Part shown: positions 4,547 to 56,470 of the stretch, piece by piece
Numbering within the stretch: the stretch's first letter is position 1
Layout of the letters: every line of letters starts with the position of its first letter
Source of the DNA: a phage
Sequence record: PZ445428.1
Length of the DNA: 64,000 nt
Direction: 5' to 3' (one strand)
Notes under the pieces: generated by a model
What the model was told of the DNA's origin: nothing
The model's input: the letters and a program-made list of their open reading frames with translations, nothing else
Databases searched by the model: none
Made by a program: the position numbers and the translations under genes

Positions 4547-6880
4547 ATGGACTTTCGAATCACAAAAGTAATTAAACGCGACGGTACGATCCAGGACTTT
4601 GCTCCTGAAAAACTCAACGACTGGGCTGCGTGGGCATGTAAGAATGCTAACGTTAGCTGGTCTGCCGTAGTTATGGCTGCACTGAAAAATCTACCTAAAG
4701 GGGTTGTAGATTCCGATACACTTCAAGATGTATTAATCAAAGCAGCAGAAGGTTTGATCAAAGATAACCCTGCGTATGATGAAGTAGCGAAGGAATTACG
4801 TCTTGCACAGATGCGTAAACGCCTGTATGATTCCTATGAACCACCTTCTTTACGTTTCTTCCATGACCACATGGTTAAAGTTGGGGCTTGGGAAGATATG
4901 AGTGCATGGATTTCCGATGAACAGTTTGACGCTTTGAATGGTGTTATTGATCATGAACGTGATCGTCTCTTCACTAGCGGTGGTCTGAAACAGTTCTTCG
5001 ATAAGTATTCCCGTCGTAATATCGCAACTGGCGAAATTTACGAAACCCCGCAATTTGCCTACATGGGTATGGCAATGGCGATGTTATCTCAACCTAACTG
5101 GACAATTCTGGATGCAATCGACCTCTACAATGCAATGTCGCTCCATAAAATCAACGTTCCTACTCCGCCACTGGTTGGTCTGCGCTCTAGTGACCGTGGA
5201 TTTGCTAGTTGCTGCCTCGTGGATTCCACGGACACGCTGGATTCAATCGACACAGCCGAGCACATCGTTTTCAAAATGGTCGCAGCCAGAGCGGGAATCG
5301 GGTATCATCTTGAAAGCCGATCAATTGCTGATCCGGTGCGAAATGGGGCGTTCCCGCATTCCGGAAAACTGCCATATTATAGACACATCGACCGTTCAGT
5401 AAAAGCGAACACTCAGCAAACCCGTGGTGGTTCTGCTACTGTATCTTATCCGTACTTCGATCCTGAAATCATTCAGTTGATGCAGGTTAAACAGCAACGT
5501 GCTACAGACGAGAACAAAATCGATAAGATGGACTACTCTCTGAGCTTTAACAACCTTCTATTGAAACGTTATCTGAAAAACGAAGATATTACGCTCATGT
5601 CTTACTTCTATGCACCAGAAGTCCACGAAGCGTTTTATGGGGAAGATGAGGCTAAGTTTGAAGAAATCTATGTGGCAGCGGAGAAACGTGTGGCATCTCT
5701 TACAAAGATCGACCACGAAGGAAAAACAATTCCAGCAGCTCCTAAAATCCCTGCAAAAGAAATCCTAGATACTTGGTTACGTATCCGTATGGAAACAGGT
5801 CGTATGTACGCTCATCACATTGGGGAATCTAACCGTCATGGTAACTTCCTTGACCCGATTCGTATGACCAACCTTTGTGTAGAGATTACCCAGCCAACTC
5901 GTCCATTCCAGCACATTACGGAACTGTACAAAACTCCAGATCAACTGGATGATATGCGTCCAGAAGATATTGGTGAAGTATCTCTGTGTAACCTGGGTGG
6001 TGTTGTTCTAGGCCGTATGAGTTCTCTGGCAGAATGGGAGAAAACTTGCTACATCCTTCTGAAATTCGTTGATACTATCATTGAAATTCAGGACTATCCG
6101 TTCCCAACTATGGAATACACGGCTAAGAAGCGTCGTAACGTAGGTATTGGTCTGATGAATGCAGCAGGTGCAATGGCAGCAGAAGGTCTGGCTTACGAAG
6201 GTGAAGAAGCTCGTAACTGGATTCACCGTGAAGCTGAGAAGCTCTCTTACTTCCTGCATAAAGCCTCTGTACGTCTGGCAAAAGAACAAGGTGCATGTGA
6301 TTGGTTTAACCGTACCAAACCTTCTCAAGGAACTCTGGTAATCGACACCTATAAGAAAACTGTTGATGAACTGGTATCCGTAGGTCTAGAAATGGATTGG
6401 GAATCTCTGCGTGCAGATATCCTGAAATACGGTATGCGTAACTCTGTTCTGACAGCTCAGATGCCTGGTGAAAGTTCTTCTGTACTGTTAGGTGTTACCA
6501 ACTCAATTGAGCCACCTCGTAAGATTGTATCTATCAAGGGTAGTGCAGTGAACAAAGTAATTGCAATTGCTCCAGGTGCAACTGATTGGGATACTCTCAT
6601 GAGCTATAAACTAGCCTATGATGTAGATCGCATTGAGTGGATCAAGTGGGTAGCAACTATGCAGAAATTCTTCAGCCAGTCTATTAGTACGAACATGTAC
6701 TATGACTACACCAAGTTTGAGAATGAAATCATTCCTGGCCCAGTAGTAGTTCGTGATTTCATGACTGCTGTTAAGTACGGATGGAAGACTTGGTACTACG
6801 CTAACTTCAACACTGAAAACGGTGGTGGAGCAGGTGAAGAAGCCGCAGCTGGTTGTGCATCAGGTGGTTGCCAACTTTAA
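4547..6880 (+). CDS. nrdA: ribonucleoside-diphosphate reductase large subunit (class Ia)
   Basis: ORF track 4487..6880; start moved to ATG 4547 after AAGGAAA RBS (4487 possible); NLCVEI active-site region and C-terminal CASGGC tail. Confidence 0.9.
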   Translation: MDFRITKVIKRDGTIQDFAPEKLNDWAAWACKNANVSWSAVVMAALKNLPKGVVDSDTLQDVLIKAAEGLIKDNPAYDEVAKELRLAQMRKRLYDSYEPPSLRFFHDHMVKVGAWEDMSAWISDEQFDALNGVIDHERDRLFTSGGLKQFFDKYSRRNIATGEIYETPQFAYMGMAMAMLSQPNWTILDAIDLYNAMSLHKINVPTPPLVGLRSSDRGFASCCLVDSTDTLDSIDTAEHIVFKMVAARAGIGYHLESRSIADPVRNGAFPHSGKLPYYRHIDRSVKANTQQTRGGSATVSYPYFDPEIIQLMQVKQQRATDENKIDKMDYSLSFNNLLLKRYLKNEDITLMSYFYAPEVHEAFYGEDEAKFEEIYVAAEKRVASLTKIDHEGKTIPAAPKIPAKEILDTWLRIRMETGRMYAHHIGESNRHGNFLDPIRMTNLCVEITQPTRPFQHITELYKTPDQLDDMRPEDIGEVSLCNLGGVVLGRMSSLAEWEKTCYILLKFVDTIIEIQDYPFPTMEYTAKKRRNVGIGLMNAAGAMAAEGLAYEGEEARNWIHREAEKLSYFLHKASVRLAKEQGACDWFNRTKPSQGTLVIDTYKKTVDELVSVGLEMDWESLRADILKYGMRNSVLTAQMPGESSSVLLGVTNSIEPPRKIVSIKGSAVNKVIAIAPGATDWDTLMSYKLAYDVDRIEWIKWVATMQKFFSQSISTNMYYDYTKFENEIIPGPVVVRDFMTAVKYGWKTWYYANFNTENGGGAGEEAAAGCASGGCQL

Positions 6881-8647: not shown

Positions 8648-9183
8648 TGATAGCAGCAATCTATGCAACTGGGCCGAAAGGGGAGTTCGGCCTCAATGGT
8701 AGACTCCCTTGGGGTTCCTTCAAAGAGGAACTAGATATATTTTATGCCACACTAGATTCTCTAGCACCTGATAACATCATCATTGGTGCAGGTACGTGGT
8801 TGGGCTTTCCTGAAACGCTTCAAAAGCGGATTTTAGGGGATTCTGATCTGTTTATTTATGCCAATGCCCACAAGCCTTTACCAGAAACTATTGGGTGCCC
8901 TACTCGAATTACTAGCATTGGGTATACTTTGCCTGAATTCTTTAAGGAAGAAGTAACAGTAGTATTGGGCGGAGCAGCTTTGCTCCTAGAGATGTATGCT
9001 AAAAATCACTTAGACATGGCATATGTTTCGACAATCGCATCAGCAACACCATTATCAGCTGATGTACACTTGCATCCACATATTACTATGACTAACTCGA
9101 TGGCAACCAGAATGGAGTATGCATCAGGGGAGAATGCGGATAAAACCCTTTCCTTCCTACAGGAGCTGGTAACGTTTAAATGA
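8647..9183 (+). CDS. frd: dihydrofolate reductase
   Basis: 178-aa ORF between nrdB and thyA; N-terminus IAAIYA..G..G.LPW DHFR-like; start overlaps nrdB stop. Confidence 0.65.
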
Positions 9184-10034
9184 AACAATATATTGAAACA
9201 GGAAAACGTATTCTCGAAGAAGGTCAGTGGGTAACTAATCCTAGAACAGGTGTACGTTGCCTCACTATTATTGATGCAGATTTCACTTTTAATGTGGGGG
9301 CTAATGAATTTCCTCTTATTACTACTCGTAAGGCATTTGCAAAACAAGCAATAATGGAAATGATTGGCTATCTACGTGGTTATGACTCCGCAGCACAATT
9401 CCGCGATATCGGGGTTAATACGTGGAACGCTAATGCAAATGAAAACCTTGCATGGTTGGATAATCCATATCGTAAAGGCGAGGATGATATGGGACGGGTC
9501 TATGGTGTTCAAGGACGTCATTGGACAAACTCTGATGGTCTTATGTTTGACCAATTATCCAAGATCTATCGTAACCTGAAAAGAGGGATTGATGATCGTG
9601 GGGAAATTCTAACTTTCTGGAATCCGGGGGAGTTCTCAAAGGGCTGCTTGCGTCCTTGTATGCACACCCATCAGTTCTCTATTCTAGGTGATACCTTATA
9701 TCTGAATTCATTTCAGAGGTCTAATGACTTCCTGCTAGGCCAGGTATTTAACATGGTTCAATGCTACGCTTTGCTTGCAATCATGGCTCAAATCACTGGA
9801 TATAAACCTGGGATCGCTCGCCAAAAGATCGTGAATCTTCACATCTATGAGAATCAGTATGAAGTTCTAATGGAACACAAACAGTTTGATCGTGAACCTT
9901 TTGAGCCGCCTCATCTGATTATTAATCCAGATATTCGAACTTTGGATGATGTATTAACTTGGGTAAGTAAGGATGATTTTACTGTTCGTGGCTATGAACA
10001 TCATCCTGCTATTGCATATCCATTTACGGTGTAA
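9180..10034 (+). CDS. thyA: thymidylate synthase
   Basis: 284-aa ORF; [10 protein letters not shown] catalytic-Cys region and QRSNDFLLG motif typical of ThyA. Confidence 0.85.
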
Positions 10035-10037
10035 CAT

Positions 10038-10391
10038 ATGTTAATTATACTATTATTTGTAATATTCTTTCTAAAACATTTTATGGCCGATTATCCTCTC
10101 CAAACACCATATATGCTAAGAAAGACTCATAAAATAGGGTGGAAACTTCCATTATTAACCCATTCTCTAGTACATGCTGTATTAACATTTGCAATTCTAA
10201 TTCTATTCACATCACTAGGGATGGCTATAGCTTTAGCTATTATGGAATTAATTTTACACTTTATTATAGATTATTGGAAAGCACAACGCTGTAAGTACGC
10301 TATAAGCGATGCTAAGTTTTGGATAGCTTTAGGATTTGATCAGTTACTGCACTATCTGACATACGCCTTAATAATCTTGATTATAATCTAA
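10038..10391 (+). CDS. small hydrophobic membrane protein
   Basis: ORF track; multiple predicted TM stretches. Confidence 0.5.
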   Translation: MLIILLFVIFFLKHFMADYPLQTPYMLRKTHKIGWKLPLLTHSLVHAVLTFAILILFTSLGMAIALAIMELILHFIIDYWKAQRCKYAISDAKFWIALGFDQLLHYLTYALIILIII

Positions 10392-10395
10392 CTCA

Positions 10396-10421
10396 AATAG
10401 CCCTTCGGGGCTATTATATTT
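10396..10421 (+). terminator. hairpin terminator
   Basis: AATAGCCC-ttcg-GGGCTATT hairpin then AT-rich run. Confidence 0.5.
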
Positions 10422-10430
10422 AAATTTCAT

Positions 10431-10459
10431 TTGCTTACTGAGTGAAATTCAAATATAAT
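10431..10459 (+). promoter_or_regulatory. early promoter cassette (-35 TTGCTT, -10 TATAAT)
   Basis: Hexamers with 17-bp spacer. Confidence 0.55.
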
Positions 10460-10483
10460 ATATTTTATAAATTGGAGACACCT

Positions 10484-10738
10484 ATGGGACTCTTTAAAAA
10501 GAAAGTTTATTTAACACAAAGTCAAGAACGCAGGTTCTTAACTCTGTCTCAGTATTATCACTTACCTTTCGATCATTTCGTAGAACGGGCGATAGAACAA
10601 TTCCTAGAAAAGGAACTAAGGGCAATAAGACCCGAACCGCCAAGAGTACCCAATGATGCACAGAGAGGCCACCCACGTATTCCTCCTATGCCGCCAATTC
10701 CTCAGGCGACTAGGGTCATTGTAGAGGGCGAAAAATAA
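10484..10738 (+). CDS. hypothetical protein (Pro-rich C-terminus)
   Basis: ORF track 10442..10738; start moved to ATG after GGAGACACC. Confidence 0.5.
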   Translation: MGLFKKKVYLTQSQERRFLTLSQYYHLPFDHFVERAIEQFLEKELRAIRPEPPRVPNDAQRGHPRIPPMPPIPQATRVIVEGEK

Positions 10739-11007
10739 TGTCTATTCTTTTATCTGCTTTAGAAGCAAAACAAAATACTATTGCTGTTATTAAACAGGAA
10801 GTAATTGACCTAGAATCACTTATTGCCGTAGAGATTGATAAAGCAATCAAAGAAAAAGAATTTAACTGCCATATTCAGGGATTAACTGAATATTCAGAAA
10901 ACGCCAGAAACAGCGTTATGCAACGACTTACTAAACTAGGCTATATCGTAGAGGCTAAGTATGAGCAGCGTGAAGGTTTTTGGCTTGAAATTGACTGGAG
11001 CAAATAA
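10738..11007 (+). CDS. hypothetical protein (89 aa)
   Basis: ORF track; start overlaps upstream stop (TAATG). Confidence 0.5.
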   Translation: MSILLSALEAKQNTIAVIKQEVIDLESLIAVEIDKAIKEKEFNCHIQGLTEYSENARNSVMQRLTKLGYIVEAKYEQREGFWLEIDWSK

Positions 11008-11483
11008 TGTCGGTTTTCCACATATATACAGATGGTGCATGTAAAGGTAATCCTGGGTTAGGCGCTTGGGGTTTTGTAGTATATGATCCTACTGATGAAC
11101 GTTTAGGTTCTAAATCCGGTTTTAATCCAAAAACCACAAATAATGAGATGGAACTCACAGCTATTGTTGAAGTTCTACGTTGGGCTACTAAAAATGATAA
11201 GCGCCCAGCTATGATCTACACTGACTCTACATACTGTAAAAATGGCATGGAAAGCTGGGTTTTCTCCTGGCAGAAAAAAGGCTGGAAGAAAGCCGATGGA
11301 GAAGCCCCTCTTAACCTAGAGTTGTGGAAAGAAGCATTCTCATTACTACAAAAATACATAAACTTCCACGACACCACACCGACCTTCGTTAAAGTCAAGG
11401 GGCACTCAGGTGGTCCTAGAAATGACGAAGTAGACGCTCTATGTAATACAGTTATAACAGAGCAAGAGTTAGCTGAGATGTAA
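11007..11483 (+). CDS. rnh: ribonuclease H
   Basis: N-terminus IYTDGACKGNPG typical of RNase HI. Confidence 0.8.
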   Translation: MSVFHIYTDGACKGNPGLGAWGFVVYDPTDERLGSKSGFNPKTTNNEMELTAIVEVLRWATKNDKRPAMIYTDSTYCKNGMESWVFSWQKKGWKKADGEAPLNLELWKEAFSLLQKYINFHDTTPTFVKVKGHSGGPRNDEVDALCNTVITEQELAEM

Positions 11484-11503
11484 TAAATAAATTAAAAATT
11501 CAG

Positions 11504-11532
11504 TTGCTTAAAGCCCTCGATTTTAGTATAAT
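11504..11532 (+). promoter_or_regulatory. early promoter cassette (-35 TTGCTT, -10 TATAAT)
   Basis: AAAAATTCAGTTGCTT...TATAAT; conserved leader with GAGGAGG RBS. Confidence 0.65.
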
Positions 11533-11559
11533 ATTCATATTGAAAGTGAGGAGGGCTTT

Positions 11560-11838
11560 ATGCGAATTTATAACTCAAATTCATTAGGTTTCAAACCATT
11601 GAGAAAACGTGCACAATCTCCGCGTCAGATCAGAAAGGCTAATATCGGAGAACCAGAAACGCGTCTTCCGCCACCTCCTGAACAACGTTTAGTTTATCTA
11701 GACGAGGAATTGGCAGAACGTGAACGTAAAGCTCAAGAAGAAATTGAGCGTAAGAAGATGTGTACTGCTCCGGCATATAATAAAGGTGCATATCAATACG
11801 TTTCTGATGAAGAACAAGCTAAGATGGTCGGCAGATAA
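11560..11838 (+). CDS. hypothetical protein (92 aa)
   Basis: ORF track; cassette promoter and RBS. Confidence 0.5.
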   Translation: MRIYNSNSLGFKPLRKRAQSPRQIRKANIGEPETRLPPPPEQRLVYLDEELAERERKAQEEIERKKMCTAPAYNKGAYQYVSDEEQAKMVGR

Positions 11839-49858: not shown

Positions 49859-50189
49859 AACAATACAAACTCTCGTTGACAGATAGATTAATGTATGTTA
49901 TCATAACTCTATGAGTTAATAAAATTAACCATTTAGAGTTGCCACACAGAAGGTGTGGTGGTTCAGGAATCTTAAATTACTGACTTGTAGCGTAGGATAC
50001 GGAGCGACAGGACAAGTCAACAGGTAATTTAATAAAGATTACTAGAAACATCACGAGACCTTCTGGCGGGGGCAAAGCTCTATATGAGAACCCTGGGGGA
50101 TCTTATACTTATATAAAAACTGATACTGTCAAATAGGTAAATTAACGTTCAAGATGATACACCGGTTGCCGCTCATCTGCTAGGATGGC

Positions 50190-50470
50190 TCAACACTTTC
50201 TTCTAGACTCCTAAGTTTCTAGGAAAACTCTCGATATCCAGGGCAGTTTTCATTATTCCTAGAAACTCTAGCAATAGGCGGTTAATACAGTAAACTGTCA
50301 TTTCAGTCGCTACCCTCCTTCAATGACAGGGCGGTTATAGGGAGGGCGGTTATTTCTAGGAGACATTTTTTGAAAACACATTTCTGGAAATTCTCATCGG
50401 ATTTGCACATTACATTTCTAGAAATTTATGGTCGGATTTGCACATTGATAGAAGACTCCAGAATTTCTAT
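50190..50470. repeat. cluster of TTTCTAGRAA-type palindromic motifs (about 6 copies)
   Basis: AGTTTCTAGGAAAACT, TTCCTAGAAACT, CATTTCTAGGAGA, TACATTTCTAGAAATTTATG, CCAGAATTTCTATG read in sequence. Confidence 0.5.
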
Positions 50471-50996
50471 GAACATTGAAAATAGCAGCATTATTTCGGG
50501 CCGAAGGCCCATGTTTGCCTGAGTTTTTAGAGCCACAGGAATTTTCACTTGTCAAGCAATTTTGCCCCCTTTAACTAATAAAATTTCACATAATCTCCAC
50601 CTATCTCAAATCTCCCCAAAACATCCCACATTATCCCCAAAAACGCAGCAAATAAGGCGTTTCACGCCATTTCCGCTGCCCCTTCCGTTTCTCCTCTTAT
50701 TTTCTCTCACTGCGTCAACTCTCACACAAACTCACACAATCACACACTCTCTCATCGAACTCACAAAAACTTCATCGGATTCGCACATCTTAACCCTAGA
50801 AAAATCATGTCGTATTTGCACATATGCGGCTGGATTTGTGCGCAGCACGAGTCTGCCCGAGTTTTTAGGAAAATTCATTGTCGGATTTGCACAATATAAA
50901 ATATTTTCGGGTCGGATTTGCACACTACCAAAAATTGTCGGATTCGCACATACACGCCCACGCGTAATTCATGGCGGCAAATGTCGGATTTGCACA
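50394..50996 (+). repeat. array of about 9 direct copies of 14-bp motif GTCGGATT(T/C)GCACA with irregular spacing
   Basis: Copies near 50397, 50431, 50775, 50809, 50830 (degenerate), 50880, 50911, 50937, 50983, all same orientation. Confidence 0.8.
50570..50760 (+). repeat. CA/CT-rich low-complexity tract (CTCACACAA repeats)
   Basis: Strand-biased pyrimidine+A composition; generates spurious Pro/Ser/Thr/His ORFs. Confidence 0.6.
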
Positions 50997-51039
50997 AAAG
51001 CGCAGGGCAAAATGAAAATGCCCTGCTGGCCGAAATGCG

Positions 51040-51175
51040 AATGATAATGAGAACGATTCGCATTTGAGAAGTTGAATGCGAATGAGAATGAGTCGCGTTT
51101 GGAAAGTGGAATGAGAATGGTTATTATTTACAGAGTTGAATGCGAATGAGTCGCATAATGAGAATGATTTGCATT
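51040..51175 (+). repeat. tandem GAATGCGAATGAGAATGA-family repeats
   Basis: GTTGAATGCGAATGAG twice plus several GAATGAGAATG units. Confidence 0.7.
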
Positions 51176-51204
51176 TAGGGAGGGAAGTGAGAAACACTGC
51201 TATT

Positions 51205-51305
51205 TAAGTTATCCACAGGTTTATCAACAGCACGATTTGACTTGACAAAACCCTAGCGATTTTGAGGCGTTTTCAACAGACTTATCAACAGGTTATCCTA
51301 CTGGA
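51205..51305. promoter_or_regulatory. cluster of DnaA-box-like 9-mers (one perfect TTATCCACA, plus TTATCAACA x2 and TTATCCTAC)
   Basis: Consensus TTATCCACA at about 51209-51217; related boxes at about 51221, 51282, 51293. Confidence 0.5.
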
Positions 51306-51345
51306 TAAATATACAGTATTCCTGCGTAGGGAATAACTCTAATAT

Positions 51346-51385
51346 AGCGTTTAAACGCTCTCAAACGCATTCTAAGCGGTTTAAT
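51346..51385 (+). repeat. copy A of ~30-bp repeat AAACGCTCT..AA.GC.ATTCTAAGCG.TTT
   Basis: Near-identical to copy at 54931-54968; inverted related copy at 54393-54430. Confidence 0.55.
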
Positions 51386-51691
51386 TTTGGAGGAGGTATT
51401 TTAATAAGGGGAAATTTGTTTGCAGGCAGAAAAGGCGGGGCCGATAGTTGCGCCCCGTTATTATTAGAGGAGTGGGCAATTATCCCGCTTTGCCATTTCG
51501 CGCCACTCCTCCCACTGTTTCACCTTGCGGCGATGTTCCAAAAACTTTTTAAACCACTGTTTCATAATGCCATCGCACCTAGAATGAGAATGATTATTAT
51601 TAACATTGCAAAGCCGTTCCCAAATCGTAAACGCTGGGAATGTTTCCCAGCGGTATTATTAGATTTATGGGATTGCGTTTTACGCCACCAG

Positions 51692-51877
51692 CTATTCACG
51701 GTAGACACGCCAGCCGTCATTAAACATTTCACGGCTGTAAAATTCATGATTGAATTTGTAACCGTCCTCAGTGGTGATCACTTCATATTTCATGAATAAA
51801 TATTCATGGATAGAAAAATAACGATGGGTTACTTTTTCACCTTCTAGCATAGCCTTTACAGCTTCATTTCTAGTCAT
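51692..51877 (-). CDS. hypothetical protein (61 aa)
   Basis: ORF track; start overlaps stop of upstream gene (ATGA); AAGGTGG RBS. Confidence 0.45.
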   Translation of the reverse strand: MTRNEAVKAMLEGEKVTHRYFSIHEYLFMKYEVITTEDGYKFNHEFYSREMFNDGWRVYRE

Positions 51878-52218
51878 TGCGCCACCTTTCGAAACGCTGT
51901 TTCAATACTTTCAGCGGTTGATTGAATATACGCGCCTTTCATAATCAGGCGCTCTGTACATACTTTGCGGAAAATATCAATAAATTCATCTTCATTTTCT
52001 GCAATCAAAGGCTCACCCATAACCTGAATATCGCATGAGTTAAAAGTAAGAAACTGAAAGGCAAGCTCGCGAGCGACAACGGCATTAATCTTATAATGTG
52101 CTTTTCCTTCATAGATGTTAACCACGCCTTTATAAACTGGTGAAAGCTGATTTAAATAGTTTGCTAACAATGCCGGACGGCAATTAGTTACAAAGCGGTT
52201 GCCTTCATAAATAACCAT
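51874..52218 (-). CDS. hypothetical protein (114 aa)
   Basis: ORF track 51874..52317 trimmed to ATG after AGGAG RBS. Confidence 0.5.
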   Translation of the reverse strand: MVIYEGNRFVTNCRPALLANYLNQLSPVYKGVVNIYEGKAHYKINAVVARELAFQFLTFNSCDIQVMGEPLIAENEDEFIDIFRKVCTERLIMKGAYIQSTAESIETAFRKVAQ

Positions 52219-52354
52219 TAGAAATATACTCCTGTTACCAGATTGTAGCACAAACGGACGGTAGCAGATATTGACAGCGCCACGGCACAAACGCCCCCAA
52301 ACGCCGCCACTATACAAACAACGGTTTCACAAGTTTTTTCAAAATCGCTTTTCA

Positions 52355-52567
52355 TTATAATACCCCACGAAAAGCAGCGTAAAAAGTAGCAAAGTGTTTA
52401 ACCGTTTCCGCTATCAAATTGCCGCGCTTATCAAATTTCTTTTCTGTAACACGGAAAGCGTTTTTGTTGCGCGGTACATATTCAATTTTGCAGTCGTCAC
52501 GCTCAAACGTGTTAACATCCACCAGCTTAAAACCTTTAGAACGGGCAAGGGATACATTTTTCAACAT
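52355..52567 (-). CDS. hypothetical protein (70 aa)
   Basis: ORF track; strong AGGAGG RBS. Confidence 0.5.
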   Translation of the reverse strand: MLKNVSLARSKGFKLVDVNTFERDDCKIEYVPRNKNAFRVTEKKFDKRGNLIAETVKHFATFYAAFRGVL

Positions 52568-52624
52568 TTTACTTCCTCCTAGTAAGGGAATTTTTTACTC
52601 CACCATTTCGGTGTAAAGGCATTA

Positions 52625-52657
52625 TAACAAAAAAGGCCGCCGATTAGGGCGACCTTT
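52625..52657 (-). terminator. hairpin terminator (minus strand)
   Basis: AAGGCCGC...GCGACCTT hairpin with A-run on plus strand to the left. Confidence 0.45.
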
Positions 52658-52670
52658 ACAAAACTTTACA

Positions 52671-53144
52671 TTACGCTATTTCTGTGACTTCAATACTGTA
52701 TAACTCTCTTAAAGCCTGAATGAGAACGTTGTACTCTTCCCATTCTTTCCCCTCGGGAATATATACAAGTTGCTTTAATCGGTTGGCGTATAATAACGCC
52801 TTGTTATCATTAATAGCTACGCCGCCGTGTTTAACAATCCATCGTGTAACAGTTCCAATCGGATCACCGCCATTAACATAAATACCTGATTGCGTCAACT
52901 GATATTTATAGAGGCTGCCTTCAATACTATTATCTTCAATGCCGCTTTCGAAATCCTCATCATTTTCGAAACGAGAAGCATTATCATATGCTAGTTCTTG
53001 GGCGAAAGCGTCCAGATCACAGCCAGCAGGAATAAAATGTTCCTCCGTCCAGTTCTCTCCGCAATAGCCCGTATTGCAATCTGATATAACGATCATATCG
53101 TGGTTAGCTTTCCCGCTAACAGGTAAACCGTATTTCTCTGACAT
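52671..53144 (-). CDS. hypothetical protein (157 aa)
   Basis: ORF track; AGGAGA RBS; CG-rich codon usage unlike the early region. Confidence 0.6.
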   Translation of the reverse strand: MSEKYGLPVSGKANHDMIVISDCNTGYCGENWTEEHFIPAGCDLDAFAQELAYDNASRFENDEDFESGIEDNSIEGSLYKYQLTQSGIYVNGGDPIGTVTRWIVKHGGVAINDNKALLYANRLKQLVYIPEGKEWEEYNVLIQALRELYSIEVTEIA

Positions 53145-53160
53145 TAATTAGTCTCCTAAC

Positions 53161-53193
53161 TAAAAGGGAAAAGGCGGGGCAAACTACCCCGCC
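53161..53193 (-). terminator. rho-independent terminator (minus strand)
   Basis: GGCGGGG-caaacta-CCCCGCC hairpin with A-run on plus strand to the left. Confidence 0.55.
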
Positions 53194-53202
53194 CGATTAT
53201 TA

Positions 53203-54210
53203 TTACTCGCTTTCGGCGTTTTGGGTAAAGGTGGAAATGTCAATGCCTTTTACCATTTCGTCGATCATTTCAGCGATGTTAAAAGATTGTACCATTTCTA
53301 ACATTGCCGCTTCCATTGCCGCGCCTGCTACTGCTTTAGCTTTTGCGTTAGTCGGGGCGTACTGGTCAACCGCTACGCTTAACAGGTTAGCGATCACTAC
53401 GCGGCCAATCGGCGTATCAATATAACCTTTAATCATAAACGGTGCTTTTTTCGCCGCTACTTTTGTGATTTGAGTCAAAGCAATTTTACCCGCTTCCAGT
53501 TTAGCAGCGTTTACAACGGCGGATTTATTAGCGGCGATGATAGAAGTTACTTTAGACATAGTGTTATTTCCTTTATTTTCAGTAGTTTGCGCAATTGCGC
53601 TTGAAGTTTGAGTGTTAGAGCTTACAGCTTGTTTAGCTACGTTGTCAACTGGTTTTAATGTAAATCCAGATTTTGCGACATTCATCACATTATCCTCATC
53701 CTCAAAATAACTTTGAGGAAACAACATGTTACCTGTCGAACGTTCAAAACACAATACGCCGGTAGTAGAAATTGAATCATCTTTCGCGCGGCTAATATGT
53801 GTACCACACTCGCCCCAAATGCTAGACAATAAATCTTCTACACTGCTAGAGTTAATATTAGATACCCGAACGCCGAAAACTTGATCTTTATCCTGTACAT
53901 TATAACCACGGGCAAGATAACCGCGATCGTCATGACCTACAATGATAAAATCAATATTGTTTTCACGGCGATTATTAAAGATGAAATAATCACGGTTATA
54001 TAATACTAAAATCCGCGTAGGATCAAGTAATTGTGTGAAATCATCAATTGAATAATCCACCTCACAATCATCTAAAATCATGCTGTGGATTTGTTCAACC
54101 TTTGCCGCCGTATGGTGAACGCTTGCCGCGCTACTACCATCTAGCAGATTGCGCAAACTACCTTTTAAAATAGTTGCGTTTTCTGGTACTGCAATTCTGG
54201 TCAAAGACAT
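53203..54210 (-). CDS. hypothetical protein (335 aa)
   Basis: ORF track; GAGGGAG RBS; Ala/Lys-rich C-terminal half. Confidence 0.6.
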   Translation of the reverse strand: MSLTRIAVPENATILKGSLRNLLDGSSAASVHHTAAKVEQIHSMILDDCEVDYSIDDFTQLLDPTRILVLYNRDYFIFNNRRENNIDFIIVGHDDRGYLARGYNVQDKDQVFGVRVSNINSSSVEDLLSSIWGECGTHISRAKDDSISTTGVLCFERSTGNMLFPQSYFEDEDNVMNVAKSGFTLKPVDNVAKQAVSSNTQTSSAIAQTTENKGNNTMSKVTSIIAANKSAVVNAAKLEAGKIALTQITKVAAKKAPFMIKGYIDTPIGRVVIANLLSVAVDQYAPTNAKAKAVAGAAMEAAMLEMVQSFNIAEMIDEMVKGIDISTFTQNAESE

Positions 54211-54392: not shown

Positions 54393-54430
54393 AAAACCGC
54401 TTAGAATCGATTCTAGACCGCTTAAAATTG
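54393..54430 (-). repeat. inverted copy of TTCTAAGCGG-family repeat
   Basis: AAACCGCTTAGAATCGATTCTAGACCGCTTAAAA. Confidence 0.45.
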
Positions 54431-54930
54431 ATTGCGGTTGTTAGTGCTACCTATTTACCCTGTATATTTATACAGTAGGATAACCTGTTTATAAGTCTGT
54501 AGATAAGTCCTCTTATCTCTGCCTATTGCGTCAAGTTATTTTGTGCTGTGTATAACTTTGGGGATAAGTTAAATGATAGTGGTTCTCACTTAGCCCGATA
54601 GTTTCTCATAGTTATTATTTCTCATTAATTTATATGTATATTATATATTATGGAATAGTTAGTTGGCTAATAGGATTTTCCGTGATTAATAGTCTGCTAA
54701 TGATAACGCATGTTACAATCCACCAGCGCGATTACCATCCTAGCGACTGTTAGCGTGCTAATGATCCATAACGTTACCAATTCTTAAATGATACTCATTC
54801 TCATTGTAGGAAAGTTACGAAATGCTGTTATAAAGCAACATGTCAATAGCAAAGCGGGTAAGGCATAAAAATAAATTTTGTCAATACCCGAAAGTTATTA
54901 AATGTGGTGTGAATAAGTTATCAACAGGGT

Positions 54931-55570: not shown

Positions 55571-55780
55571 ATGAAACAATCTCTTTTGCTAACGGGTAAA
55601 CCTGCTAGCCCATTAAACAGCAGAACAAAAAAGCTCTTGACAGTAGCGCAACAATCCGTAAAATACAGATTCAAGCAATACAAGAAAGGCAAGCAACAAG
55701 GTTTAGAAATGGTGTGGCGTAATATAATGATTGATTTATATAACTCACATCAAATCGAAAAAAGTTTAAAAAACGCTTGA
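55571..55780 (+). CDS. hypothetical basic protein (69 aa)
   Basis: ORF track. Confidence 0.45.
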   Translation: MKQSLLLTGKPASPLNSRTKKLLTVAQQSVKYRFKQYKKGKQQGLEMVWRNIMIDLYNSHQIEKSLKNA

Positions 55781-55962
55781 CGCTCCAGCCGATAGGCTCT
55801 AATATGTATCTCGTACCACGGCGAATGACAAAACGCCCTGCTCTTTAAAAATTTGGATAACGGTAATGTTTAGGCTAACTCCTAGCGGATTATAATCTAA
55901 TACCGATTTAAAACATCAAATCGGTATTGTGGAATAATCCCCAATAAACCGGAGTATTAAAA

Positions 55963-56214
55963 ATGCAAAACGTTATTACCGCGCCGAAAGTTGGTCAATC
56001 TGTATTCATTCCTTTTGTTACTAAAACGGATGAATTAACCGGAAAAGCCGAACGTATTAAAGGTGCGGCGCTTGATCCTTTCGATAAAATCGAAGCGGTC
56101 TATGCGGAAACGGAACGCAGTAACCACGGCAAGCCGATTTATAACGTCCGTGTTAAATCAGGCGACGTTGTAAAGATCATTCAAAAAGATGATAAATGGC
56201 AAGCTATCGCATAA
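55963..56214 (+). CDS. hypothetical protein (83 aa)
   Basis: ORF track; GGAGTATTAAAA before ATG. Confidence 0.5.
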   Translation: MQNVITAPKVGQSVFIPFVTKTDELTGKAERIKGAALDPFDKIEAVYAETERSNHGKPIYNVRVKSGDVVKIIQKDDKWQAIA

Positions 56215-56470
56215 TAAGCGGTAACGATTTTAAATTAAAATATCATGCTTAGAGCGGCAATTATGAGCTAACTCGAAGTAATAGCGAGAAATTACCATAC
56301 CAGTGAAAGTGATAAAAGCTATCGGTTATAACCTTTAGCGCCTTAATTGGCTTTAAATTGAAAACTATAATCTAGAGTTTTCGTTATATATTTCGTGACT
56401 ATATACCGGAATATATAGCGGCTAATTCTAGCCATAATCCCTTAATTAAAAATTGAATGGAGTATTAAAT

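What the first reader, a model, noticed from the sequence alone, without database searches (positions are those of the whole stretch)
51205..51305. Cluster of DnaA-box-like sequences beside the repeat arrays
One perfect consensus DnaA box (TTATCCACA, about 51209) and three or four single-mismatch boxes within 100 bp, plus another TTATCAACA near 54918 next to a repeat copy. This is consistent with host DnaA recruitment (origin-like or transfer-pause function) at the pre-early/early boundary.
Basis: partly seen in the sequence, partly recalled or inferred. Interest (0 to 1): 0.55.

Follow-up and report, generated by a model that had tools for sequence, protein, structure and literature searches.

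The report
T5-type DnaA boxes at injection-stop region
The flagged DnaA-box cluster is real and strongly conserved, but it is the already described DnaA-box module of the phage T5 "injection stop" region (here in the T5 relative TrudiGerster); nobody has tested its function, and a near-perfect LexA (SOS) box that I found no paper mentioning sits beside it.

Summary
The window is Escherichia phage TrudiGerster, a T5-like phage. There is one perfect box (51209), two single-mismatch boxes (51221, 51282) and one further box (51270) that misses only the degenerate consensus TTWTNCACA at one position. They form two tandem pairs, each with a 3-bp gap.

The cluster is one arm of a roughly 200-bp inverted repeat. 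The other arm (54394-54591) carries four more boxes on the opposite strand. These four pairs are the only such pairs in 64 kb (expected 0.07).

The arm is homologous to T5 IRD'-spacer-IRC' (about 90% identity). DnaA boxes were noted there in 1987, and Davison (2020) compared them in 25 phages and proposed that membrane-bound DnaA arrests first-step DNA transfer. No experiment has tested this.

My additions are these. Across 59 unique arms the boxes vary at exactly the degenerate positions of the DnaA consensus. Clusters that include at least one perfect TTATCCACA persist in Proteus, Aeromonas and Vibrio relatives whose DNA is not alignable. A LexA-type box (CTGT-N8-ACAG) sits beside or close to most clusters.

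An origin function is not supported. The box at 54918 is not conserved.

Verdict: already known, a member of a known element. The mechanism is still open.

The parts
51186..51198 (+). Conserved motif AGTGAGAAACACT at the outer edge of the distal arm. Its ligand is unknown.
   Evidence: It is near-invariant in both arm classes. It is also present in T5, Klebsiella and Proteus phages.
51209..51217 (+). DnaA box 1, TTATCCACA (perfect consensus).
   Evidence: It is perfect in 25 of 30 unique distal arms and 22 of 29 proximal arms.
51221..51229 (+). DnaA-like box 2, TTATCAACA, 3 bp after box 1.
   Evidence: Position 6 is A in distal arms and mostly C in proximal arms.
51230..51269 (+). Spacer between the box pairs. 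It contains TTGAC(A) at 51242-51247, which is invariant.
   Evidence: TTGAC is identical in all 59 unique arms. No matching -10 hexamer was found.
51270..51278 (+). DnaA-like box 3, TTTTCAACA.
   Evidence: Position 3 alternates A/T and position 5 takes any base across relatives.
51282..51290 (+). DnaA-like box 4, TTATCAACA, 3 bp after box 3.
   Evidence: It reads TTATCCACA in 17 of 30 distal and 23 of 29 proximal arms of relatives.
51299..51318 (.). LexA (SOS)-box-like palindrome TACTGGATAAATATACAGTA, equivalent to 'palindrome D' of T5. It has 2 mismatches to TACTGTATATATATACAGTA.
   Evidence: 26 of 30 unique distal arms have CTGT-N8-ACAG, and the T5 copy has one mismatch.
51350..51382 (.). 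Inner end of the distal inverted-repeat arm (IRB-type repeat AAACGC...TAAGCGGTTT).
   Evidence: I4, D3.
51400..54210 (-). Pre-early gene cassette of about 3 kb on the minus strand, enclosed by the two arms.
   Evidence: The distance between arms ranges from 1.85 to about 4.3 kb in relatives.
54394..54426 (.). Inner end of the proximal inverted-repeat arm, the partner of 51350-51382.
   Evidence: I4, I5.
54458..54477 (.). LexA-box-like palindrome CCCTGTATATTTATACAGTA. It is the only exact CTGT-N8-ACAG in the window.
54486..54506 (-). Proximal-arm box pair TTATCTACA-GAC-TTATAAACA.
54547..54567 (-). Proximal-arm box pair TTATCCCCA-AAG-TTATACACA.
54578..54590 (-). AGTGAGAACCACT, the outer edge motif of the proximal arm.
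54908..54926 (.). It is not conserved and is probably incidental.
51000..51007 (-). Homolog of the T5 major nick site CCCTGCGC (7.9%). It marks the approximate first-step/second-step boundary.
   Evidence: by homology only.
50397..50996 (+). Array of eight TCGGATTTGCACA repeats (DRD type) just beyond the boundary.

Best explanation
The cluster is the TrudiGerster copy of the T5 'IRD'-spacer-IRC'' element. This element is the distal arm of a pair of roughly 200-bp inverted repeats that bracket a variable 3-kb pre-early gene cassette in the non-coding control region of the terminal repeat. Each arm is a composite landing pad for proteins that already exist in the host: two tandem pairs of DnaA boxes, pointing toward the cassette, followed by a LexA-type palindrome. 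As first-step DNA enters, host DnaA most likely assembles on the eight boxes, nucleating on the consensus box of each pair and spreading cooperatively to the weaker neighbour. LexA probably binds as well. Binding may bridge the two arms. The resulting nucleoprotein complex sits about 175-290 bp inside the point where DNA transfer pauses. It takes part in controlling the two-step transfer or the pre-early programme, not in replication initiation. Shown here: homology, architecture, motif-specific purifying selection, and retention of the motifs across distant genera. Inferred: DnaA or LexA actually bind. Speculative: binding causes the injection stop.
For: The arm is 89.7% identical over 136 bp to T5 9328-9463, and the flanks are collinear. 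Every locus that extends across both sites carries both arms in inverted orientation. The element is found in 533 phage records, usually at 2 places per record, or 4 when both terminal repeats are present. The pooled matrix of 236 box instances is T T (A>T) T N (C>A) A C A, so variation falls exactly at DnaA-consensus positions 3 (A/T only) and 5 (any base). The arms have diverged as paralogs (74% identity between arm classes against 90% among distal arms). The consensus is still shared in 32 of 36 box columns, against 23 of 40 spacer columns and 41-47% of flank columns. Proteus, Aeromonas and three Vibrio relatives have non-alignable DNA and an A1 protein only 31-42% identical. They still carry two box clusters upstream of A2, each locus with 2-6 perfect TTATCCACA where 0.2-0.3 are expected. 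The two clusters point in opposite directions in pVp-1, Direpillow8 and Proteus phage 2; box orientations are mixed in Aeromonas AhSzq-1 and Vibrio D386. A2, the phage DNA-binding protein, is only 37-40% identical between these genera while the motif is unchanged. The literature describes the same boxes in T5 and 24 relatives.
Against: No DnaA or LexA binding, and no genetic test, exists for any T5-like phage. Half of the boxes carry A at position 6, which the strict consensus does not allow. The sequences compared are phylogenetically related, so the counts overstate independent support. My own physical reasoning also raises a difficulty: a protein complex on DNA that is already inside the cell does not obviously stop DNA that is still being pushed from a 92%-full capsid. 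T5-like phages are isolated on the recA1 strain DH5alpha, so RecA-driven LexA cleavage cannot be an essential step.
Confidence: 0.55

Rival explanations
1. The boxes are binding sites for a phage-encoded protein, such as the A2 DNA-binding dimer or the A1-A2 complex that releases the stop. On this view their resemblance to DnaA boxes is coincidental or a case of mimicry.
For: A1 and A2 are needed for second-step transfer, and A2 binds DNA. Other conserved motifs in the arms match no host-factor consensus that I recognise: AGTGAGAAACACT, TTGAC, and the conserved A at box position 6 in distal arms.
Against: The stop happens without phage protein synthesis, so pre-existing factors must act first. 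The motif stays TTATCCACA while A2 diverges to 37-40% identity. The variable positions mirror DnaA specificity. A second canonical host motif (LexA) sits beside or close to most clusters.
Confidence: 0.15
2. The arms are transcriptional boundary or roadblock elements. DnaA and LexA bound at both ends of the cassette would insulate the rightward pre-early operon and keep RNA polymerase from running into the DNA still in the tail channel, or would tune the divergent pre-early promoters.
For: The distal arm lies just downstream of the homolog of the terminator that T5 annotates at 9196-9212. The proximal arm lies between the homologs of the divergent promoters T5P3 and T5P4. The LexA-like boxes face the cassette in both arms.
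Against: No promoter-like hexamers overlap the boxes or the palindromes. The arms are kept even where the cassette genes are inverted, as in the Klebsiella and Pectobacterium phages.
Confidence: 0.15
3. This is an oriC-like replication origin, or an auxiliary origin, driven by host DnaA.
For: The boxes form clustered, oriented arrays. A moderately AT-rich tract (31-32% GC) adjoins the proximal arm at 54500-54800.
Against: No DUE 13-mers lie near either arm, and the flagged arm has an ordinary GC content of 38-42%. The literature places T5 origins mid-genome by electron microscopy, and the replication genes are not on first-step DNA. The element is duplicated in both terminal repeats.
Confidence: 0.06
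4. The inverted repeats exist mainly as recombination substrates for exchange or inversion of the pre-early cassette, and the boxes are passengers.
For: Cassette content, length and orientation differ between lineages while the arms persist.
Against: The arms have diverged to 74% identity, so they are poor recombination substrates, yet motif columns are selectively retained. Distant genera keep the motifs without keeping the arm sequence.
Confidence: 0.06

Closest known systems
Phage T5 injection-stop (iss) region: IRD'-spacer-IRC' (AY587007 9332-9462) and its partner IRC-spacer-IRD (6022-6152)
   Same: It is the homologous sequence (about 90% identity) in the same position between the early genes and A2-A1-dmp. 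It has the same four box pairs with 3-bp gaps, the same 61-bp pair-to-pair spacing, the same palindrome D and the same inverted partner about 3 kb away.
   Different: There are only point differences. TrudiGerster has TTATCAACA/TTTTCAACA where T5 has TTATCCCCA/TTATCAACA. Its distal palindrome has CTGG instead of CTGT. It keeps all eight boxes, whereas T5 has seven.
E. coli oriC DnaA-box arrays (from established knowledge of oriC)
   Same: There are consensus boxes flanked by weaker same-orientation boxes at helical-repeat spacing, and two arrays that face each other.
   Different: The gap is 3 bp rather than 2 bp. The arrays are about 3 kb apart rather than about 200 bp. There is no DUE, and no evidence of origin activity.
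Non-origin DnaA-box clusters (datA, DARS) and plasmid origins with DnaA boxes at both ends (P1 oriR), from established knowledge
   Same: These are clusters of a few DnaA boxes used for something other than, or in addition to, duplex opening. Some may involve looping between separated box sets.
   Different: There is no sequence relationship. The T5-type element is on a virulent phage, is duplicated in the terminal repeats, and is coupled to a LexA-type palindrome.
LexA operators (SOS boxes) of Gammaproteobacteria, CTG-N10-CAG
   Same: The 20-mers show 1-3 mismatches to TACTGTATATATATACAGTA in T5-like arms. CTGT/ACAG is kept while the centre varies in distant genera.
   Different: The palindromes do not overlap a recognisable promoter, and the phage is virulent. 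No LexA role is reported for T5 in any paper I could find.

Membership tests
T5-type iss inverted repeat (IRD'-spacer-IRC' / IRC-spacer-IRD) | Sequence homology to T5 9332-9462 | tested here: met
   89.7% identity over 136 bp; alignment.
T5-type iss inverted repeat (IRD'-spacer-IRC' / IRC-spacer-IRD) | Position in the non-coding region between the early genes and the pre-early A2-A1-dmp block, near the inner end of the terminal repeat | tested here: met
   Annotation of MZ501108 and of T5. T5 9090-11814 is collinear with window 51562-48864. The terminal-repeat end itself is inferred by homology, because the assembly collapses the repeat.
T5-type iss inverted repeat (IRD'-spacer-IRC' / IRC-spacer-IRD) | Inverted partner copy a few kb away | tested here: met
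   Arms 51185-51382 and 54394-54591 are 76-89% complementary.
T5-type iss inverted repeat (IRD'-spacer-IRC' / IRC-spacer-IRD) | Eight DnaA-type boxes in four pairs with 3-bp gaps | tested here: met
   One search lists exactly four such pairs, two per arm.
T5-type iss inverted repeat (IRD'-spacer-IRC' / IRC-spacer-IRD) | Two-step DNA transfer that stops near the element | not testable with these tools
   This has been shown only for T5 and BF23.
DnaA-binding site array | 9-mers matching TTWTNCACA | tested here: inconclusive
   One strict match per arm (51209 and 54547). The other six boxes miss by one position, mostly A at position 6.
DnaA-binding site array | Conservation pattern that follows DnaA specificity | tested here: met
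   Positions 1, 2, 4, 7, 8 and 9 are at least 93% invariant. Position 3 takes A or T only, and position 5 takes any base.
DnaA-binding site array | Binding by DnaA | not testable with these tools
   No published data exist.
oriC-type replication origin | AT-rich unwinding element or 13-mers next to the boxes | tested here: not met
   No 13-mer hit within 4 kb of the distal arm. The hits around 55624-56232 lie about 1 kb or more from the proximal arm, and hits window-wide are not above chance. GC is 38-42% at the flagged arm.
oriC-type replication origin | Origin activity | not testable with these tools
   The literature places T5 origins mid-genome.
LexA operator (SOS box) | CTG-N10-CAG palindrome with an AT-rich centre, close to the 20-bp consensus | tested here: met
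   The two arm copies have 2 and 3 mismatches, and they are the only LexA-like 20-mers in 64 kb.
LexA operator (SOS box) | Overlaps a promoter that it represses | tested here: not met
   No promoter-like site overlaps either palindrome. The consensus scan is weak evidence.
LexA operator (SOS box) | Binding by LexA | not testable with these tools
   -

The most novel reading that the evidence does not exclude
The injection-stop arms of all Demerecviridae may be composite landing pads for two pre-existing host proteins, DnaA and the SOS repressor LexA. A near-consensus LexA box sits within about 7-30 bp of a DnaA-type box at most clusters (a few copies lie 117-600 bp away), from E. coli to Vibrio and Aeromonas phages. 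No T5 paper I could search mentions it. If LexA really binds, a strictly virulent phage would be using the host SOS repressor together with the replication initiator to stage its own DNA entry or its pre-early programme.
Probability: 0.25. Interest if true: 0.65.

Novelty: already known. Interest (0 to 1): 0.3.

Why it matters
How T5 stops DNA transfer at 8% and then resumes has been open for more than 50 years. The DnaA boxes are the only concrete candidate for a host-factor handle on the stop signal. This window adds no new kind of element. The comparative results do sharpen the hypothesis into cheap experiments. The relevant results are box variation that follows DnaA specificity, persistence of the boxes in genera whose DNA cannot be aligned, and the adjacent LexA-type box. 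The experiments would be DnaA and LexA footprints, infection of dnaA or lexA mutant hosts, and box-scrambled phages.

Tried and rejected
1. Chance: rejected by shuffles.
2. Origin: I looked for DUE 13-mers, AT-richness and skew. Nothing lies beside the flagged arm.
3. Structured RNA or DNA: there are no Rfam hits of note (best E-value 0.25, far below the gathering scores). The arm folded as single-stranded DNA is no more stable than shuffles (z = -1.1).
4. Promoter within the arm: the invariant TTGACA has no partner -10, and only weak 9-of-12 matches occur.
5. The 54918 box as part of the system: it is not conserved in relatives.
6. An unbiased locus set from the flanking early protein gave only 10 loci, so I used A1 as the anchor, which gave 37 loci.
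7. The Klebsiella VAC35 locus was cut by the record end and was replaced by vB_Kpn24-P2.
8. Literature searches for T5 growth on dnaA mutants, or for LexA in T5, found nothing relevant. Two searches failed on term length.
9. LexA cleavage as the trigger that releases the stop: unlikely to be essential, because T5-like phages are isolated on recA1 DH5alpha, and A2 mutants degrade host DNA yet do not complete transfer.

Full report
IDENTITY OF THE WINDOW. Window 50000-53000 is 100% identical to Escherichia phage TrudiGerster (MZ501108, Demerecviridae, Epseptimavirus; window position = record position - 50661). [quoted passage not shown] Early genes lie on the + strand up to 49819. A non-coding repeat region follows, then a minus-strand gene cassette (51400-54210), then A2, A1 and dmp on the + strand.

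THE OBSERVATION.
- TTATCCACA at 51209, the only perfect box in 64 kb.
- TTATCAACA at 51221 and at 51282.
- TTTTCAACA at 51270.
- A three-mismatch half-box TTATCCTAC at 51293.

They form two tandem pairs, each with a 3-bp gap, and the pairs start 61 bp apart. In 1000 dinucleotide shuffles, three or more near-consensus boxes within 100 bp occurred in 1% of cases. Tandem 3-bp-gap pairs were expected 0.067 times; four were observed, and no shuffle reached four. The overall number of near-consensus boxes in the window is not unusual. What is unusual is the arrangement.

The cluster is one arm (51185-51382) of a large inverted repeat. The other arm (54394-54591) is 76-89% complementary and lies about 3.1-3.3 kb away. 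That arm carries the other two pairs on the minus strand: TTATCTACA-GAC-TTATAAACA and TTATCCCCA-AAG-TTATACACA. The eight boxes therefore converge on the enclosed cassette.

HOMOLOGY TO T5. The distal arm is 89.7% identical over 136 bp to T5 9328-9463, and the proximal arm matches T5 6022-6159. These are the annotated inverted repeats D'/C' and C/D of T5. T5 9090-11814 is collinear with window 51562-48864. By homology:
- The first-step shear point (T5 about 9618) falls near window 51030.
- The major nick site CCCTGCGC falls at 51000-51007.
- The end of the terminal repeat falls near 50500.

The flagged boxes thus sit about 175-290 bp inside the first-step DNA.

WHAT IS ALREADY KNOWN. Davison (bioRxiv 10.1101/866236) states that Heusterspreute et al. 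(1987) found one consensus and three variant DnaA boxes in exactly this T5 element. He adds that 25 T5-like phages almost all carry eight boxes in four pairs, each pair with a 3-bp gap. He proposes that membrane-bound DnaA binds them and arrests first-step transfer, and that A1/A2 later release the block. He argues against an origin role, because T5 origins map mid-genome and the replication genes are not on first-step DNA. Later papers repeat the description and say that experimental tests are lacking (2023) and that the mechanism remains poorly understood (2026). The finding is therefore a rediscovery, in a new relative, of a described element.

NEW COMPARATIVE EVIDENCE.

1. Breadth. The 171-bp element is present in 533 phage records, usually twice per record. 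Every one of 47 IMG/VR and GenBank loci that cover the region has both arms in inverted orientation, 1.85 to about 4.3 kb apart.

2. Specificity of the variation. I compared 30 unique distal and 29 unique proximal arms. The pooled matrix of the four boxes (236 instances) is T(235) T(236) A211/T25 T(230) C166/T39/A24/G7 C166/A65 A(219) C(228) A(227). Variation is concentrated at position 3 (A or T only) and position 5 (any base). These are the two degenerate positions of the DnaA consensus TT(A/T)TNCACA quoted. There is in addition a C/A alternation at position 6 that the strict consensus does not allow.

3. Selection on motifs, not on complementarity. The two arm classes are old paralogs: identity averages 74% between classes, 90% among distal arms and 85% among proximal arms. 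Their consensus is nevertheless identical in 32 of 36 box columns, 18 of 20 palindrome columns and 12 of 13 columns of an outer motif, AGTGAGAAACACT. The comparable figures are 23 of 40 spacer columns and 41-47% of flanking columns.

4. Persistence in distant genera. I anchored on the A1 protein and fetched loci from Pantoea, Klebsiella, Pectobacterium, Proteus, Aeromonas and three Vibrio phages. In the last five, A1 is only 31-42% identical and the DNA is not alignable, yet box clusters lie upstream of A2. There are 2-6 perfect TTATCCACA per 18-26-kb locus where 0.2-0.3 are expected. In pVp-1, Direpillow8 and Proteus phage 2 the two clusters point in opposite directions; box orientations are mixed in Aeromonas AhSzq-1 and Vibrio D386. 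A2, the known phage DNA-binding protein, is 37-40% identical between these genera. A motif that stays fixed at the universal DnaA consensus while the phage proteins diverge fits a host ligand better than a phage ligand.

AN UNREPORTED NEIGHBOUR. The palindrome next to the inner box pair ('palindrome D' of T5) is a LexA-type SOS box.
- T5 reads TACTGTATAAATATACAGTA, one mismatch from TACTGTATATATATACAGTA.
- The window has TACTGGATAAATATACAGTA (51299-51318) and CCCTGTATATTTATACAGTA (54458-54477).
- These two are the only LexA-like 20-mers in 64 kb.
- 26 of 30 unique distal arms keep CTGT-N8-ACAG.
- In Proteus, Aeromonas and Vibrio phages the centre of the palindrome changes (ATGGATAT, ATATCCAT, ATATAATT), but CTGT/ACAG stays. 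Most copies lie 7-30 bp from a DnaA-type box; a few lie about 117-600 bp away.
- The CTG-N10-CAG rule is quoted. The 20-bp consensus comes from my own knowledge.
- Davison's paper does not mention LexA or SOS, and four literature searches found no T5 paper that does.

This is a lead, not a demonstrated site. The palindromes overlap no recognisable promoter. T5-like phages grow on recA1 DH5alpha, so RecA-dependent LexA cleavage cannot be essential.

ALTERNATIVES TESTED.
- Origin: no DUE 13-mers lie within 4 kb of the flagged arm, and its GC content is ordinary (38-42%). Only the proximal arm adjoins a modestly AT-rich tract.
- Structured nucleic acid: there is no credible Rfam hit and no unusual single-strand fold.
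- Promoter: the spacer TTGAC(A) at 51242-51247 is invariant in all 59 arms but has no -10 partner. Its role is unexplained.
- The 54918 box: the divergent pair TGTGAATAAG-TTATCAACA is not retained in relatives. I regard it as incidental.

MECHANISM AND CONFIDENCE.
- About 0.7: these are selected host-factor sites, with DnaA the most probable ligand of the boxes.
- About 0.55: the fuller statement that they form a nucleoprotein module of the injection-stop or pre-early control region rather than an origin.
- About 0.25-0.3: DnaA binding is itself what arrests DNA transfer. There is no experiment, and a complex on DNA that has already entered does not obviously resist the push from a nearly full capsid (my inference).

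Rivals that remain open:
- The ligand is a phage protein.
- The arms are a transcriptional boundary or roadblock. The distal arm follows the homolog of a T5 terminator, and the proximal arm lies between divergent pre-early promoters.
- The arms are a recombination substrate.

VERDICT. Novelty: already known. The comparative sharpening and the LexA-type neighbour are the only additions.

Noticed in passing
window 51299-51318 and 54458-54477; T5 L002 9330-9349 and 6135-6154; L056 7730 and 10513; L052 6376 and 9914; L055 7164, 10262 and 10939; L054 3903 and 5257; L057 593: There is a near-consensus LexA (SOS) box, CTGT-N8-ACAG, with 1-3 mismatches to the 20-bp consensus in T5-like arms. It sits beside or close to most DnaA-box clusters across Demerecviridae genera. 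It is 'palindrome D' of T5. No T5 paper I could search mentions LexA.
   Followed up: partly
window 54486-54567 (- strand): A second, mirrored set of four DnaA-type boxes lies in the proximal inverted-repeat arm.
   Followed up: yes
window 50397-50996 (+ strand): There are eight copies of TCGGATTTGCACA (T5 'DRD' repeats) where 1.5 are expected in 64 kb. Their 9-mer ATTTGCACA is one mismatch, at position 1, from the degenerate DnaA consensus and points the same way as the distal boxes. I did not see the repeats in the box-cluster regions of the Vibrio and Aeromonas relatives that I read; I ran no dedicated search for them there.
   Followed up: no
window 51186-51198 (+) and 54578-54590 (-): The motif AGTGAGAAACACT is conserved at the outer edge of each arm. 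It is also present in T5, Klebsiella and Proteus phages. I recognise no host-factor consensus in it.
   Followed up: partly
window 51242-51247: TTGAC(A) in the spacer is identical in all 59 unique arms of both classes, but it has no matching -10 hexamer. Its purpose is unknown.
   Followed up: partly
window 50500-50800 and 51000-51200: There are extreme local strand asymmetries: GC skew -0.65 (CACA/CTC-rich repeats) and +0.45 (GAATG repeats), on either side of the inferred first-step/second-step boundary.
   Followed up: no
window 51000-51007 (- strand): This is the homolog of the T5 major single-strand nick site CCCTGCGC (7.9%). It lies 200 bp from box 1, next to a hairpin-forming palindrome (GCAGGGCAAAATGAAAATGCCCTGC).
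   Followed up: partly
loci L053 (Klebsiella phage) and L058 (Pectobacterium phage), between their arms: The cassette genes between the arms are on the opposite strand compared with T5 and TrudiGerster. The cassette length varies from 1.85 to about 4.3 kb among relatives. This suggests the arms delimit an exchangeable or invertible module.
   Followed up: no
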